In this document: in pieces, positions 25,075 through 50,372 of the stretch | How positions within the stretch are numbered: position 1 is the stretch's first letter | Layout: every line of letters starts with the position of its first letter | From: the human T2T-CHM13v2.0 reference genome, Homo sapiens | Strand: one strand, 5' to 3' | Length of the DNA: 64,000 bases | Assembly (NCBI RefSeq): GCF_009914755.1 | Contig: NC_060925.1 | Translations under genes and position numbers: made by a program | The notes under the pieces: model-generated | What the model was told of the DNA's origin: nothing | Databases searched by the model: none | The model's input: only the letters and a program-made list of their open reading frames with translations

Positions 25075-25257
25075 GACTCCTCACAAATCCCAGGCCGACA
25101 CAACAGCAGAGAAAACAGCAGACAATGTCTCTTCTAGCACCCCGCTCTGTGTGATCACCAATCGCCCTCTTCCTAGCACTGCCAATGGGGTTACAGCTAC
25201 TCCTGTGCTCTCCATTACTGGAACAGATTCCTCTGTGGAAGCCAGGGAGAAGAGGAG
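25075..25257 (+). CDS. PPP1R12B: PPP1R12B coding exon (~exon 13)
   Basis: atttcag|GACTCC...GAGGAG|gtatgt; 183 nt, phase 2-2; TPHKSQADTTAEKTADNVSSSTPLCVITNRPLPSTANGVTATPVLSITGTDSSVEAREKRR. Confidence 0.95.
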
Positions 25258-37979: not shown

Positions 37980-38891
37980 TTTAAAAATAACATTAGTACT
38001 GTTAATCTCCACCAAACAGTTCTGGGAAGGGAGGCCTAGATGGTGTCTACTAAGAGTTAAAGCAATGAGATTTAGAGCCTTGAATAAAAGAGTCTATTTT
38101 CTTTTTTCCGTATTTCTGTTGCTAAACACGGCTGTTGCCAACACCATCTCACTTCATTTTCCAGAGATAAGGGCATTTGTCATGCGTTTCTCAGCCCACC
38201 ACTTAACAGTTCAGGAGTGGAAGCTTAAAGTGTTTCCCCCTCCCCCTCAGGACACGTGCATTTAGAAGAAAGGACAAGAATCCATTTCCTTATGTAGCAG
38301 AACCTCTGATAGTTCTATCCCAGTTCCCAGCCACTTCAGAGTGAAGACAGTCACCCAACACCTGCTACTAAAAGCCCTTATCAGCCATGTTTTTGCGGTT
38401 AATCTCCTTCTGATAAAGTGGTTCATTTTTCAGAGCTGTGAATATTGGTGACATGTAGGAGGGACCAAAATTTTCAGCCCTCATTCAACCCTCCCTTGTT
38501 TTTTATCAGTTGATTTTCCCATGTTAGAAAAGGACAGTTGCTGGTACAATCTCATAAAATGGGCTCCAGTGTTTAGAGAAGGACAGTCAGAGGAGTGGCC
38601 ACCTGTTTGTTGAAAATTGGGCTTCTGGGAAAGTTGCTGCACAAGTGTGTGGCAAGGTGTGTCTGAGGTAGCTTGACCTGCTTTCACCTGGAATGATTTG
38701 ATCTGGCAATAGAGTTCCTTGCCATTCCTGGTTTTATGGAAATCAGAGGCACAGGAAGTTGATCTGGGTGTTCTGGGGAATTGAGACAAGCCTCTGCCAT
38801 AGTTTGTTAGTACTCTGTGTTTGGAGGCTAACTCCAGTGTGCTGAGTTGAGACATCAGCAAGTGCTGGGCCTGGAATGTCAGAAGCAGCAG
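37980..38891 (+). promoter_or_regulatory. PPP1R12B: Candidate cardiac intronic promoter and first exon (small-subunit HS-M21-type transcript)
   Basis: No recognisable repeat; GATA sites at 38165, 38378, 38411, 38503; NKX2-5 CCACTTAA 38199 and CCACTTCA 38331; T-box AACACCT ~38357 and AGGTGTG 38655; MEF2-like TTAAAAATAA 37981; donor CAG|gtaaaa at 38891/38892. Confidence 0.55.
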
Positions 38892-41800
38892 GTAAAATTT
38901 CTTTGTTTGATAGCTTTAATGTCCTAGATGCATGTTTCTTTGGGAAACTGGCTTGGTTGCATACTTTGATTTGGTGGTATGGTTGGGGAAGTGGGAGAAG
39001 GCAAGTGGTAAGAATAAGATATAACCAGTTTGGAACTTCTCTAGTGTTTCTTCACATTACTAATGAATTTAAACATGTGCACTGACTTATAAACATCAGA
39101 CCCAAAAGATTAGAGTAGCAGAGGACAATTAAGAGTTTCAAGAAGTAGAAACATGCTTCTCTTTTAAAGAAGAAACTGGAATTGGCACTGTTATTCTTAA
39201 GTTGGATAGTAAGACACAGGTGATGGTTTATTATTCTTTATATCTTTTTTGTTTGCCTTAAATATTATATATGTTTTAAATAAGTAAAACAGAAAAAAGT
39301 ATTGTTGGATATTTAGGGCAATTACAGAAAGAAGCTCATTTACATAGGTGAAGGGGCAGATTGCAACTTGAGTTGGCCTTTGAAATTATAAAATGAAGAG
39401 ACTAGTTCAATCAGGTATGGGTAAAAGTTATTTACTTACTACACACTCTACAATCAGATTGAATATTAATGGAAGTTAATGTTTTTCCATGTGTATAAGA
39501 TGAGAAGTTTCCTAGTTGATCTTGTTCAGAGGACCAATTTCTGGACAGAATACAAACACATGCTGAATCAGGCAATATAGAAAATCCTGCTGATCGTTAG
39601 TCATTTTAGTTCTGTAGAGAGAGCACTCACCAAACTCTGAATTCAGCCTACCCAGGACTATACTTTTCTCTCTATTTTTCTTATCCCTTTCTCTCAACTC
39701 TTCTTCCTGGTAATTGCGTCACTTTACTCAGGTAGAAAGATTAGGCCTATTTCCTGTACATTTTACTTTCATGACCCTCTTCCTTTGTCCATGCGTGACC
39801 TTCTTTCTAGAATAGTTTTTTCTCACCTTCTTTGCTTAACAAAATTGTATTCATACTGTAAGAACTCCTGCAAATTAAAACCCACTACTGACTACCCTGC
39901 TACACCTGAGCCCCAGGCTAAAACTAGTATTCTGTCTTCAGTGTTCTTTTTTTGTAACACTGTCTTAGGATTGGTTTACTAATTAATTAAATGGTATGTT
40001 GTTGCTTTTCATTACTACATTCTGAGCTTCTTTAGGGTGCTTTTAATTGGGTTTTCTTCACAGAGCCTAATACATAGTAGATGATGGGTAAATGTTTATT
40101 GAATAAAATTATTTCTCAAATGAAAATAAGCCCATGTGTAGTGATCTTCTATGCCCATAAGATGGCAGCAGAAGAATGTCTATTGATCTACTTGAGTGTG
40201 AAGCTAGCAAAGACCGTTTTGTGTTTGGATGAGTTCGCAGATGAGCCTTTCTATCCCATTCCATTTAAGTGTTTTAATATAGGGAATGCAGATTTTTTTT
40301 GGCACATGAAGGCCCTTTGTGCACTTTCACCCTGGCACTTCTTCACACAAGAGCGACAGGTACAAGGTATAAAGCTCCCTGGATTGCAAGAGAGGATACC
40401 TAGTTTACTCTCCAGCTAAGCCCACAATTTATGCCTTCTCAGGCAAGCCATTTAACTTCTCTTGTTCAGTTTCTTACTCAGCTAATTGGTGGAGTTAGGA
40501 GATCTATAGGGAATATTAGATTATAAAATAATAGCATTCTAAGTCATCAGTGACTGCCTTAGTTGTGTGCTCAATATTGTGTTAAAAACTGTATGATAAA
40601 AAAGGGACATGCCCAAGTGCTCTCATGATCCAAGACATCAAATGTACACATAGTAAGGCATGAGTGTATATTAAGGAATAATATGTCCTTGAGAGCAAAA
40701 TTGTGTTTAGGTAGGTATATTAAGAGTTCAGAGAAGATGAATGGTATAGGATGGAGTAGTCAGAAGGGGCTTCGTGGAGCCAGAGGAGATTGAGTTGGCC
40801 TTTAAGTATATGAAAGGTTTAAATGCTGTAAGAGAATTAATGTTTTTGAAAACTTACTATAAGCCAAGTACCCTGCTAGATGCATTTAATCTTTGTAACT
40901 TTGTCAGATAAGTAATATTCTTTTCTTAATTCACGTAAGAGAATGCATTGAGGCTCAGCTAGGTTAAGGAATCTGTCCACAGTCACAGAATTTGTAATGA
41001 AAAGCCAGAATTCAAAACGAGGTATTTTGGACTTTGAGGCCCATGCTTGCTCTTCTACACCTCCAAGAAAATGTGTCCAAGGGGTCAGTCTTCACTGGAT
41101 ATTTGTATACCATGAGCTTGGCAATATAAGCACAATGGTTAGAATCTCTTGATATTTATTTGAAGGGAAAGTAGAACTTCTAGGAAATGAGTCTTTGTAT
41201 AGGGAAATATCACTTCTGAAAGTGAAGCAAATTGAAAACTTGCTAGCCTCTCTGAAATCTAGATGGGAAATAGGGTTTTTTTGTTTTTATTTTTGATTTG
41301 AGAACCAAATGAGAGGTTGTCTTATGGGTCATCTGGCTGTCCAGGGTTGGCTGAGGTTGCTGAATATAAGAAGCTTATCTTTGGGAGAGTTCCAGAGCCT
41401 TGGGCAGGCATATTTCTATTTTAAGAAGTATTTTTAAAAATGGAATTGGCTGACAGCAATTACCTGAAGGCTTGTTTCTGATTCTTCTTTAAACAGTGAT
41501 TTTTCTTCCTCTTCCTCAGAGTCTCTTAAATAATACTGGATAGTATACTGACCTAGCTTTTAAACTTATTTTTTCTAAGGAAATCTAGTCTTCTAACCTG
41601 ATAAAGGGAACTAGAGTATGATTCACAGTCCTTGCGCACTTGTGCTGAAAATGGCTCATTAATCATTGACGTGTAAATAAAATATAGTAATAGCTCAAGA
41701 ATCCTTTGAGAACTAAATTTCTTTATAATGAAACTGACAGTGTTTAATAGAACACTTAGCATACAAAATTCATAAACATTGGGAAGCAAAACTGCAAGTT

Positions 41801-43011: not shown

Positions 43012-44290
<1,279 letters not shown>

Positions 44291-47590: not shown

Positions 47591-47987
<397 letters not shown>

Positions 47988-48800: not shown

Positions 48801-49416
48801 CAGCCCCTGCAAACTCAGCACTCTTGACATTTGGGGCCAGTTAATTATAGGTCTAGATTTAAGAAATGCTTAGTTTGGCTGAGGGAAATTCTTTCTTAAA
48901 AAATTCTTAATGGAATTGTAGCTTTGATTCGTTGCTTAAACATCAGCTCTGATCTCAGTGTCAAATTAGAGAGGCCAAAAATGACACATGAGCATTTGAA
49001 TGCAGTTGTCCTAAACTATGAAATCAGATCATATTTTGATATGTGACACATGTTAGATCTAGAAATCTTCCTGATCTGTAGCTAGCTTATCAAATTGAGT
49101 GGTATGTACACTCTTTCTCTATCTAGGTTTAACCCATTTATAGCAGATATGAAATTTGTTCCTGCATTTCTGTGTGTCAGGTGTTCCTTTTTTATCTGTC
49201 TCTTCACAGCTGTTGGCATTTGCTAGCTGGCTATGCCTGAGCCTCAAGTGAGGCAGTATTTACAGCTCAGTTGGATGGATGCAGCAGCTAGGGTAGCTCA
49301 AGGGCAGATGAAATAGGATCCAGAATGAGAATGCTGCATCTCTCTTTGCTCTGTCTTCTTTCACATGAGGAAGAATTTCTCTCTTTCACCTCCCTGTCAA
49401 ATGAGAAGTAGTATTG

Positions 49417-49746
49417 ATTGGTTTGGTACAGTGTATAAAACATGCATCTAATGGAATGTTATTTTGGGAACTATTAGCAGCATTGGCTCTGCCGAGGCCC
49501 AAGATTTTGCCTTCTTTCCCTTTTCTCCTCCCCTTCCTTCTCCTCCTCCTTAGTAGCAGCTCCTTAGCAAATTGCAAGCTTTGCCTCTGGCTTGCTGTAT
49601 AGCAGTGGCAGTGCAAGCCTTTTCCAGTTTCCAAGGGAGACCGGGTGCTGAGACTGCAGTCTTTCCCAGCAGCCACTTACCTTTCTTGCTATTCATTTCC
49701 ACGCATCTCTTGACCTTCGTTCTGCTATGCAGGCCTGCTCGAGGAG
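49417..49746 (+). promoter_or_regulatory. PPP1R12B: Candidate TATA promoter and alternative coding first exon (MQACSRR)
   Basis: ATTGG 49417; TATAAAA 49434; ATG-free leader 49459-49726; ATG 49727; donor GAG|gtaaca in phase 2. Confidence 0.45.
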
Positions 49747-50086
49747 GTAACAGCCTGTTTTCTTGGAGCGCTCTTTGTCAAAGGGGGCAGAGGGAAAGTA
49801 GGGTGGTACAGGGAAAGGTGTACAGAGACAGCAGAGTATAAATGCTGCAGTTGGGAAAAAGTAGCTCTAAAGTGTGCTGTATCTGTGGGCTTGTTCCTAT
49901 TTGCTATATCTATAGAACTGTTTTAAAGGTGGGAACCCCAGCATTATATCGTACTACTTAAAGTACCACATATAAAAATGTAAGATTACTGTAATACTGC
50001 CTCCAGGAAGCATAGGAGAAAAATGAGAACTTTGAGAAGAAAATGGAATCAATTGCTTTTAAACTTAGCTGACTAACAAATTGCAT

Positions 50087-50372
50087 TTTTTTTTTTTTTG
50101 AGACAGAGTCCCACTCTTGTCGCCCAGGTTGGAGTGCAGTGGTGCGATCTCACTGCAACCTCTGCCTTCCAGGTTCAAGTGATTCTCATGCCTCAGCCTC
50201 CCCGGTAGCTAGGATTACAGGTGTAGGCCACTATGCAATTTTTTCTGTTTTTAGTAGAGACATGGTTTCACTGTGTTGGCCAGAATGATCTCAAACTCCT
50301 GGCCTCGGGTAATCTGCCCGCCTCGGCCTTCTAAAATGCTGGAATTATAGGCATGAGCCACCGCGCCCAGCC
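50087..50372 (-). mobile_element. AluS
   Basis: Dimer; TSD acaaattgcatt. Confidence 0.9.

What the first reader, a model, noticed from the sequence alone, without database searches (positions are those of the whole stretch)
49417..49752. Hidden alternative first exon encoding MQACSRR in the exact phase of the next MYPT2 exon
Seen: in unique sequence deep in the big intron there is a reverse CCAAT (49417), TATAAAA (49434-49440), a ~268-nt ATG-free leader (49459-49726), and then gctATG CAG GCC TGC TCG AGG AG|gtaaca. The exon ends in phase 2 with the same AGG AG| (RR) ending as exon ~13. Known: the next MYPT exon begins SYLTPVRDEE and leads to the ROCK-inhibitory Thr site and leucine zipper. Inference: splicing would give an N-terminally truncated MYPT2 (MQACSRRSYLTPV...) without the PP1c-binding motif and ankyrins but with the inhibitory phosphosite. 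It would be longer than the known M20/M21 small subunits and could act as a kinase decoy or trans-inhibitor.
Basis: partly seen in the sequence, partly recalled or inferred. Interest (0 to 1): 0.8.

Follow-up and report, generated by a model that had tools for sequence, protein, structure and literature searches.

The report
Conserved hidden first exon of MYPT2
A seven-codon start exon deep inside the human PPP1R12B (MYPT2) gene matches one annotated in fish, turtles, foxes and cats, so it probably begins a short MYPT2 protein that keeps the inhibitory phosphorylation site but cannot hold the phosphatase.

Summary

The motifs alone are not above chance:
- The intron part in the window holds 23 ATG-to-phase-2-donor mini-ORFs.
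- TATA, then first ATG, then donor occurs about 0.5-2 times per strand and phase per window.

Cross-species evidence carries the case. Of 277 PPP1R12 protein representatives fetched, 46 carry a seven-residue M-Q-A-[C/F]-x-x-R directly before SYLTPVRDEE, 42 of them at residue 1. They come from fox, cat, sea turtles, gecko, coelacanth, bichir, sturgeon, gar, eels, salmonids and percomorphs. Human MQACSRR fits this pattern. The matching DNA pattern occurs once in the window (0 of 100 shuffles). It occurs 53 times in the 3.1-Gb genome, and three of those are this exon and its two C24 copies.

The finding is therefore the human orthologue of a vertebrate-conserved alternative first coding exon. It is absent from the RefSeq table supplied with the finding. 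The predicted product is 372 aa, with no ankyrin repeats, and keeps Thr646 and the C-terminal PKG-interaction domain.

Use in humans and the decoy or trans-inhibitor role were not tested. "Unique sequence" is wrong: two 98% copies lie on C24.

The parts
49415..49423 (+). Inverted CCAAT box (ATTGG at 49417-49421) in the context TGATTGGTT
   Evidence: Read. Fits YSATTGGYY and is the only such match in 49000-49500. ATTGG alone occurs 64 times on the + strand of the window, so it is weak evidence by itself.
49434..49440 (+). TATAAAA, candidate TATA box
   Evidence: It is one of 17 TATAAAA on the + strand. Its function was not tested.
49459..49465 (+). Initiator-like TTATTTT (YYANWYY), with the A at 49461, 27 nt after the first T of the TATA box; candidate transcription start
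   Evidence: Pattern scan (6 matches in 49000-49500). The start site is inferred, not shown.
49459..49726 (+). 268-nt leader without ATG, putative 5' UTR. It holds a 43-nt polypyrimidine tract at 49509-49551.
   Evidence: 9th longest of 1150 ATG-free runs on the + strand. The polypyrimidine tract is followed by AGs and so also looks like an acceptor. Two fish models that extend upstream of the MQAC start (P0260, P0227) have Ser/Leu/Pro-rich N-terminal extensions. I read these as translated C/T-rich leaders; that is my inference.
49727..49746 (+). Coding part of the alternative first exon: ATG CAG GCC TGC TCG AGG AG = MQACSR plus two bases of an Arg codon (phase 2)
   Evidence: Fits M-Q-A-[C/F]-x-x-R, found before SYLTPVRDEE in 46 of 277 fetched proteins. 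The DNA pattern matches once in the window with 0 of 100 shuffles matching, and 53 times in the whole genome.
49747..49752 (+). 5' splice donor GTAACA (GAG|GTAACA)
   Evidence: Score 2.01 with a simple weight matrix whose frequencies are recalled. 5 of the 13 annotated donors scored in this window score lower. The +5 base is C, not G, so it is a moderate or weak site.
25075..25257 (+). Constitutive exon 13, ending AGG AG| in phase 2. This is the exon that the alternative first exon replaces upstream of exon 14.
   Evidence: and the annotation table supplied with the finding.
38508..38891 (+). Annotated alternative first exon in the same intron, most likely that of the heart-specific M21 promoter, 10.9 kb upstream of the finding
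   Evidence: The annotation table lists it as an exon of other transcripts. A non-CpG-island, heart-specific downstream promoter is listed 114,035 bp from the CpG-island promoter (PMC2923625, supplementary file 6), which maps to about window 38,850. Its last ATG (38875) is in phase 1, out of frame with exon 14.

Best explanation
Window 49727-49746 is the coding part of a vertebrate-conserved alternative first exon of PPP1R12B (MYPT2). It lies in intron 13, 10.9 kb downstream of the known heart (M21) first exon and 14.6 kb upstream of exon 14.

Proposed mechanism:
- Transcription starts at a TATA-type, non-CpG-island promoter, near 49461 (inferred).
- A leader of about 266 nt without upstream ATGs leads to the ATG at 49727.
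- The donor at 49746|49747 joins in phase 2 to exon 14.

The product would be a 372-aa protein: seven N-terminal residues, then residues 618-982 of MYPT2.
- It lacks the ankyrin repeats (shown) and the N-terminal PP1c-binding motif. The location of that motif is taken from the literature.
- It keeps the inhibitory Thr646 segment, all of the M21 sequence, and the C-terminal PKG-interaction and coiled-coil domain.

Shown here: the sequence features, the phase, the orthology to annotated short isoforms in other vertebrates, and the domain content.

Inferred: that the exon is used in humans, the start site, and the function. The function I think most likely is a C-terminal scaffold that binds the MYPT C-terminal region as M20/M21 do. 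Once Thr646 is phosphorylated by ROCK-type kinases, it would present that segment to PP1c in trans, lowering myosin phosphatase activity or competing for the kinase.
For: (1) All motifs and the phase are confirmed.

(2) 46 of 277 fetched PPP1R12 representatives carry M-[Q/E]-[A/V/D]-[C/F/I]-x-x-R directly before the exon-14 motif, 42 of them at residue 1. Examples:
- fox P0124 and cat P0127, MQACARR
- sea turtles P0143 MQACVRR and P0144 MQACIRR
- gecko P0214 MEVCIKR
- coelacanth P0225 MQACVRR
- bichir P0251, sturgeon P0167, paddlefish, gar P0231
- eels, salmonids, and many percomorphs with MQAFVPR
The middle residues differ between species, so each is read from its own genome. The source names indicate several annotation pipelines.

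(3) The pattern ATGCARGCNTKYNNNNNNMGGT matches once in the window, with 0 of 100 shuffles matching. It matches 53 times in 3.1 Gb on both strands, and 3 of these are this exon and its two C24 copies. About 3e-4 matches are expected by chance on the + strand of this intron.

(4) The short isoforms of fox, turtle and eel carry only PF15898. Human full-length MYPT2 has PF15898 plus five ankyrin families.

(5) Fox P0124 is identical to human residues 618-982 at 317 of 365 positions.

(6) The human leader is free of ATG for 268 nt, in the top 9 of 1150 runs. That is what an intact 5' UTR should look like.

(7) The donor score is higher than 5 of the 13 annotated donors scored in the window.

(8) PPP1R12B is already known to use internal promoters for M21 and M20 (review PMC13755552, passages; PMC2923625 supplementary file 6).
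Against: - The RefSeq table supplied with the finding (24 transcripts) has no exon here.
- None of the 277 fetched proteins is a human, primate or rodent protein with this N-terminus. Only two mammalian clusters have it: fox with 11 members and cat with 4.
- 13 of 39 representatives with a short N-terminus before exon 14 use other starts. Examples are beaver MWNGRTSR, degu MGLLGKQLYR, pig MNAGLWKAAAQVCGR, sheep MQESR, lungfish and turkey.
- As bare motifs the constellation is at chance level. 23 ATG-to-phase-2-donor mini-ORFs lie in 25258-64000, and this one has the weakest donor of the 23 by construction. TATAAA, then first ATG, then donor occurs 12 times over six strand-by-phase combinations; with TATAAAA it occurs 3 times.
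- The donor has C at +5.
- There is no CpG island (observed/expected 0.16).
- Against the C24 copies the 336 bases have 6 differences. 11.6% of 1650 equal-sized windows are as identical or more so, so there is no sign of extra constraint.
- Intactness of 20 coding bases in the human lineage could be inherited without current use. My rough estimate for that is about 5-10%, not computed.
- No expression data could be consulted.
Confidence: 0.7

Rival explanations
1. Evolutionary relic. The exon is orthologous to the conserved vertebrate first exon, but its promoter is no longer used in humans and perhaps in most placental mammals. The intact reading frame is inherited, not maintained.
For: No such exon among the 24 RefSeq transcripts in the table supplied with the finding. 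No primate or rodent protein with this N-terminus among the 277 fetched. Several mammals have other short N-termini instead. The donor lacks G at +5. There is no excess identity to the C24 copies.
Against: The ATG, all conserved residues (M, Q, A, C and the final R), the phase and the GT are intact. The 268-nt leader is still free of ATG, in the top 9 of 1150 runs; neutral sequence would tend to lose this. TATA and an initiator-like motif sit at a workable spacing. Carnivore annotations carry the isoform.
Confidence: 0.2
2. Internal cassette exon rather than first exon. Transcripts from the upstream M21 promoter (exon 38508-38891) or from the main promoter would splice into the acceptor-like site after the polypyrimidine tract (AG at 49552-49553) and out at 49746. 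In M21-promoter transcripts the ATG at 49727 would then open the MYPT2 frame. Between exons 13 and 14 the 193-nt exon would shift the frame and act as a poison exon.
For: The 19 bases upstream of 49554 are 100% pyrimidine, followed by TAG|T, and the exon would be 193 nt long. Inclusion after exon 13 runs into a stop.
Against: 12 donors in this intron part have an acceptor-like site 50-250 nt upstream, so such pseudoexons are common. Exon 38508-38891 carries several ATGs ahead of it. 42 of 46 models start translation at the MQAC methionine. Two fish models that extend upstream (P0260, P0227) continue with Ser/Leu/Pro-rich residues, which suggests contiguous leader rather than a splice junction (my inference).
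Confidence: 0.08
3. Chance constellation of low-information motifs in an AT-rich intron, with no relation to any real exon.
For: The motif-level counts are all at chance level: 17 TATAAAA on the + strand, 23 ATG-to-phase-2-donor mini-ORFs in the intron part, and 3-12 TATA-ATG-donor constellations over six strand-by-phase combinations.
Against: The seven codons match a conserved vertebrate N-terminus of exactly this length and phase, directly upstream of the same exon. The pattern matches once in the window with 0 of 100 shuffles. About 3e-4 are expected in this intron, from 50 unrelated matches in the whole genome.
Confidence: 0.02

Closest known systems
Predicted short PPP1R12B isoforms of other vertebrates, such as fox isoform X7 (P0124, 388 aa), Geoffroy's cat X9 (P0127), flatback turtle X8 (P0143), loggerhead X11 (P0144), sterlet X2 (P0167) and rainbow trout X5 (P0250)
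   Same: A seven-residue N-terminus M-Q-A-[C/F]-x-x-R joined directly to SYLTPVRDEE. Only the PRKG1_interact domain is present. The segment RQTRRSTQGVTL containing the inhibitory threonine is retained.
   Different: These are computed models in other species. The human counterpart has Ser at position 5, which none of the retrieved models has. It is absent from the supplied human RefSeq table.
hHS-M21 / M21 small subunits of myosin phosphatase (208 and 224 aa), made from an internal PPP1R12B promoter
   Same: Products of the same gene from an internal, non-CpG-island promoter in the same intron (review passages). They share the C-terminal sequence.
   Different: M21 translation starts at Met775 of MYPT2, so it lacks residues 618-774, including Thr646. 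Its first exon (38508-38891) is non-coding with respect to the MYPT2 frame. The present isoform contains all of M21 plus 157 more MYPT2 residues.
sm-M20 (186 aa; the review names NP_001184060.1 as human M20)
   Same: A C-terminal product of PPP1R12B from an alternative promoter (review PMC13755552).
   Different: M20 has its own 34-residue N-terminus and joins MYPT2 at residue 831 (P0063). Its promoter must lie further downstream, outside this window.
CPI-17 (PPP1R14A) and phosphorylated C-terminal MYPT1 fragments used experimentally
   Same: A functional analogy only: a phospho-threonine segment that occupies the PP1c active site and inhibits myosin phosphatase. The autoinhibition model for Thr696 and Thr853 is described in the review. 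Inhibition in trans by a thiophosphorylated MYPT1 fragment is recalled from Khromov et al. 2009; only its title was seen, in a reference list.
   Different: There is no sequence relation to CPI-17. Trans-inhibition by a natural MYPT2 short isoform has not been tested.

Membership tests
MQAC-type alternative first coding exon of vertebrate PPP1R12B | Exactly seven residues M-Q-A-[C/F]-x-x-R | tested here: met
   Human MQACSRR against 46 models. Position 5 varies (A, V, I, L, Q) and so does position 6 (R, P, T, S, K, A).
MQAC-type alternative first coding exon of vertebrate PPP1R12B | Ends in phase 2 at a GT donor, with the last Arg codon split | tested here: met
   AGG AG|GTAACA. The pattern with MG|GT matches here only in the window.
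MQAC-type alternative first coding exon of vertebrate PPP1R12B | Lies in the intron directly upstream of the exon that begins SYLTPVRDEE, on the coding strand | tested here: met
   Exon 14 starts at window 64331. No annotated exon lies between 49752 and 64000 in the supplied table.
MQAC-type alternative first coding exon of vertebrate PPP1R12B | Transcribed and spliced to exon 14 in the organism | not testable with these tools
   No human CAGE or RNA-seq data were available. The supplied RefSeq table has no such exon. No paper contains the string MQACSRR.
MQAC-type alternative first coding exon of vertebrate PPP1R12B | Orthologous position and DNA-level conservation in other genomes | not testable with these tools
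   No vertebrate genome other than the window's own was available. Only protein models could be compared.
C-terminal (small-subunit-like) products of PPP1R12B | Carries the PRKG1_interact / coiled-coil C-terminus and lacks ankyrin repeats | tested here: met
   Tested on orthologous short isoforms and on human full-length MYPT2. P0124, P0143 and P0190 have PF15898 only. P0115 has the ankyrin families at the N-terminus and PF15898 at 881-982. For the human short form this follows from the exon structure.
Phosphorylation-dependent inhibitors of myosin phosphatase (CPI-17-like in function) | A phosphorylated threonine segment inhibits PP1c or myosin phosphatase in trans | not tested
   The segment RQTRRSTQGVTL is retained in all short isoforms seen. 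No assay or structure prediction was run.

The most novel reading that the evidence does not exclude
Vertebrate muscle, and perhaps brain, makes a MYPT2 C-terminal isoform of about 42 kDa from its own promoter. The isoform would act as a built-in, ROCK-switched regulator of myosin phosphatase. It docks on the MYPT C-terminal coiled coil like M20/M21. When phosphorylated at the Thr646 equivalent (residue 36 of the short form), it inserts that segment into PP1c in trans. One gene would then encode both the phosphatase targeting subunit and its CPI-17-like inhibitor. The human gene keeps this product, although it is missing from the reference annotation.
Probability: 0.25. Interest if true: 0.75.

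Novelty: new member of a known kind. Interest (0 to 1): 0.6.

Why it matters
Myosin phosphatase sets the calcium sensitivity of smooth and cardiac muscle. Its small subunits (M20/M21) come from internal promoters of PPP1R12B, and their role is still called largely unknown (review PMC13755552).

A third product from an internal promoter would give the field a natural candidate for regulation in trans. It is conserved from ray-finned fish to mammals and, unlike M20/M21, it retains the inhibitory Thr646 segment. Until now that kind of regulation has been studied only with artificial fragments (as I recall; the source paper was not read here).

For annotation, it marks a conserved coding first exon that is missing from the supplied human RefSeq table. 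Variants in 49434-49752 would currently be classed as deep-intronic.

Tried and rejected
- **Motif statistics.** The ATG-free run, TATA counts, donor scoring and composite constellations showed that the motifs alone are at chance level. I held the chance reading until and then dropped it.
- **Constraint from the C24 paralogues.** Not informative: 6 differences in 336 bases, and 11.6% of windows are as similar or more so.
- **Extent of the duplication from 20-kb genome queries.** The results were swamped by interspersed repeats. I replaced them by fetching C24 DNA directly.
- **Paralogous exon in PPP1R12A or PPP1R12C.** No match to the exact pattern near C12 79.77 Mb or C19 58.18 Mb. A diverged copy is not excluded.
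- **Muscle transcription-factor motifs in 49000-49500.** No MEF2 or CArG site. One inverted M-CAT at 49453 and three inverted GATA sites. This is too weak to use.
- **Literature.** Ten full-text searches found no description of this isoform. 'MQACSRR' and 'PPP1R12BP1' each returned 0 papers. Arimura 2001, Shichi 2010, Khromov 2009 and Khasnis 2014 are not held, so what I say of them is recalled or taken from reference lists.
- **Exon 14 as a protein query.** At 31 aa it was below the 40-aa minimum. I used a longer C-terminal exon instead.

Full report
**Observation.**
- An inverted CCAAT (ATTGG) lies at 49417-49421.
- TATAAAA lies at 49434-49440.
- No ATG occurs from 49459 to 49726.
- ATG CAG GCC TGC TCG AGG AG|GTAACA lies at 49727-49752.

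Exon 13 ends AAG AGG AG|gtatgt at 25257. I located exon 14 in the window's own assembly with a pattern back-translated from the motif quoted in the finding. It starts at window 64331, just outside the window, with G TCC TAT CTG ACT CCT GTA, and ends CAA|gtgagt at 64421. Splicing 49746 to 64331 would therefore read MQACSR-R-SYLTPVRDEE in frame, as claimed.

**Motif statistics.** I first asked whether the constellation exceeds chance. As bare motifs it does not.
- The 268-nt ATG-free run is the 9th longest of 1150 on the + strand. TATAAAA occurs 17 times on the + strand and 23 on the - strand. ATTGG occurs 64 and 41 times.
- I scored donors with a simple weight matrix whose frequencies I recalled from the literature. 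98 of 2173 GT sites in 25258-64000 score at least as high as this donor (2.01).
- 23 of those 98 are preceded by an in-frame ATG with no stop, in phase 2. The candidate is the weakest of the 23 by construction.
- Counting TATA box, then first ATG, then open frame to a donor in a fixed phase gave 12 cases over six strand-by-phase combinations for TATAAA, and 3 for TATAAAA.
- There is no CpG island (observed/expected 0.16 for 49000-50200).
- On the other side, 5 of the 13 annotated donors scored in this window score below 2.01. The donor is therefore within the working range of this gene.

**The sequence is not unique.**
- A search of the assembly found two 98%-identical copies on contig C24, at 27,117,650-985 and 25,498,222-557 on the minus strand. 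C24 is 62,460,029 bases and is the 24th contig, presumably chromosome Y.
- Fetching 40 kb around one copy showed that at least window 30001-64000 is duplicated there, at 96.7% identity over 33,649 aligned bases.
- The candidate has 6 differences in 336 bases. 11.6% of 1650 equal-sized windows are as similar or more so. The annotated exon 38508-38891 is 96.1% identical. This comparison says nothing about constraint.
- ATG, donor and TATA are identical in both C24 copies.

**The known internal promoter lies elsewhere.**
- A survey of alternative promoters lists a CpG-island upstream promoter of PPP1R12B and a non-CpG-island, heart-specific downstream promoter 114,035 bp away (PMC2923625: one passage of the main text; supplementary file 6; files 4 and 5 could not be searched).
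- Counted from the gene start at -75187, this falls at about window 38,850, inside the annotated alternative exon 38508-38891 and not at 49.4 kb.
- The last ATG of that exon (38875) ends in phase 1 and would hit a stop three codons into exon 14.
- This agrees with M21 proteins (208 and 224 aa) starting at Met775 of the 982-aa protein. No in-frame Met lies between residues 618 and 775. The 186-aa small subunit has its own 34 residues and joins at residue 831.

**The decisive evidence is cross-species.** The large protein database holds eukaryotic models.
- I searched it with a C-terminal exon (1239 hits, best 120 listed).
- I searched with residues 617-982 of human MYPT2 against shorter proteins (1379 hits among 8000 scored candidates, best 120 listed).
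- I searched with residues 1-160 of the fox short isoform (185 hits among 553 candidates, best 120 listed).
- Together these gave 277 distinct representatives.
- 46 of the 277 carry a seven-residue M-[Q/E]-[A/V/D]-[C/F/I]-x-x-R directly before the exon-14 motif, 42 of them at residue 1.
- The forms are MQACLPR 13, MQAFVPR 12, MQACITR 4, MQAFAPR 3, MQACARR 2, MQACVRR 2, MQAFVSR 2, MQACLSR 2, and one each of MQACIRR, MEVCIKR, MQACVTR, MQDFAPR, MQAIVAR and MQACQPR.
- The species include red fox and Geoffroy's cat (MQACARR), two sea turtles, a gecko, the coelacanth, bichir, sterlet, paddlefish, gar, arapaima, eels, salmonids, a mormyrid and many percomorphs.
- The variable middle positions show that each model is read from its own genome. 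The source names indicate more than one annotation pipeline.
- These proteins are about 320-390 aa long. The three I scanned have only PF15898 (PRKG1_interact), whereas human full-length MYPT2 also has five ankyrin families.
- Human MQACSRR has every conserved residue, the same length and the same phase.

**Significance of the match.** The DNA pattern for this consensus with a split Arg codon and GT (ATGCARGCNTKYNNNNNNMGGT) matches once in the window, here, with 0 of 100 shuffles giving any match. It matches 53 times in the 3.1-Gb assembly on both strands. Three of those are this exon and its two C24 copies. The other 50 give an expectation of about 3e-4 for the + strand of the 39-kb intron. 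No match falls in PPP1R12A (C12 near 79.77 Mb) or PPP1R12C (C19 near 58.18 Mb), so the exon is specific to PPP1R12B as far as an exact pattern can tell.

**What this leaves open.**
- Nothing here shows that the exon is used in humans. The supplied RefSeq table (24 transcripts) lacks it.
- No human, primate or rodent protein among the 277 has this N-terminus.
- 13 of 39 representatives with a short N-terminus before exon 14 use other starts.
- Among mammals only two clusters have it: fox with 11 members and cat with 4.
- The exon could therefore be a relic in our lineage. Against that stand the intact ATG, frame and GT, the TATA box with an initiator-like TTATTTT 27 nt downstream, and the leader that has stayed free of ATG for 268 nt. 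I put current use in humans at roughly two in three.
- A third reading is an internal cassette exon that uses the perfect polypyrimidine tract and AG at 49552-49553, giving a 193-nt frame-shifting exon. It cannot be excluded, but such pseudoexons are common here: 12 donors have an acceptor-like site upstream. Two fish models that extend upstream of the MQAC start (P0260, P0227) continue with Ser/Leu/Pro-rich residues. I read these as translated C/T-rich leaders, like the human tract at 49509-49551, which would suggest contiguous leader; this is my inference.

**Mechanism.**
- The predicted human product has 372 residues: seven, then residues 618-982.
- It lacks the ankyrin repeats. It also lacks the N-terminal PP1c-binding motif, which sits just N-terminal to the repeats according to the review (passage).
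- It keeps RQTRRSTQGVTL with Thr646, which becomes residue 36 of the short form. Thr646 is named as the Rho-kinase site in the abstract of PMC3546068 (search listing).
- It also keeps all of the M21 sequence and the C-terminal PKG-interaction and coiled-coil domain.
- The review states that M20 binds the C-terminal region of MYPT1, that heart M20 variants raise Thr696 phosphorylation and calcium sensitivity, and that one model of inhibition has the phosphorylated segments occupy the PP1c catalytic core (passages).
- From this I infer that the short isoform docks on MYPT like M20/M21 and, once phosphorylated, offers its Thr646 segment to PP1c in trans or competes for the kinase.
- That thiophosphorylated MYPT1 fragments inhibit the holoenzyme in trans is my recollection of Khromov et al. 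2009. Only its title was seen.
- None of this was tested here.

**Novelty.** The isoform exists as computed models in other species. No full-text search found it described: ten searches were run, including the string MQACSRR, which returned 0 papers. The library lacks most subscription papers. I could not check GENCODE or UniProt human entries other than through the protein database. I rate it a new member of a known kind, namely internal-promoter C-terminal products of PPP1R12B, and of real interest to the myosin-phosphatase field and to human annotation.

Noticed in passing
window 30001-64000; C24:27,103,369-27,137,650 and a second copy near C24:25,498,222: At least 34 kb of PPP1R12B intron 13, including the annotated M21 first exon and the exon studied here, is duplicated twice on contig C24 (presumably chromosome Y) at 96.7% identity, on the minus strand. 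The alignment runs off both ends of what I fetched. I recall pseudogenes named PPP1R12BP1 and PPP1R12BP2 in this region, but no call confirms the name (0 papers).
   Followed up: partly
window 47597-47947 (RPS27P8): The ribosomal-protein S27 pseudogene is missing from the C24 copy. The two flanking alignments overlap by 11 bases on C24 (27,119,445-455), as expected for a target-site duplication. The retrocopy therefore entered chromosome 1 after the duplication.
   Followed up: partly
window near 43807-43820 and 39860-39877; C24:27,123,223-523 and 27,127,481-781: The C24 copy has two insertions of about 300 bp relative to the window. Each has a short overlap of window coordinates at the junction. 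They look like later repeat insertions on C24, but I did not read them.
   Followed up: no
window 38616-38640, inside exon 38508-38891: The annotated M21 first exon encodes IGLLGKLL in one frame. Minke-whale and degu short isoforms begin with closely similar residues (QQIGLLGKLLHR and MGLLGKQLYR) before SYLTPV. In some mammals this exon therefore seems to be used with another donor as a coding first exon.
   Followed up: partly
window 49509-49567: A 43-nt pure polypyrimidine tract is followed by four AG dinucleotides within 16 nt, which gives a very strong acceptor-like site inside the putative 5' leader. It may be a conserved C/T-rich leader element, because two fish models extended upstream have Ser/Leu/Pro-rich N-terminal extensions (the link is my inference).
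   Followed up: partly
proteins P0057 (470 aa, 35 members, 100% identical to human over the matched part) and P0136: Another alternative N-terminus, MKLASLVQR, is joined either to SASFGRSS... or directly to SYLTPV in different models. The peptide is not encoded as one piece anywhere in the window, so its exon lies outside the window or is split.
   Followed up: no
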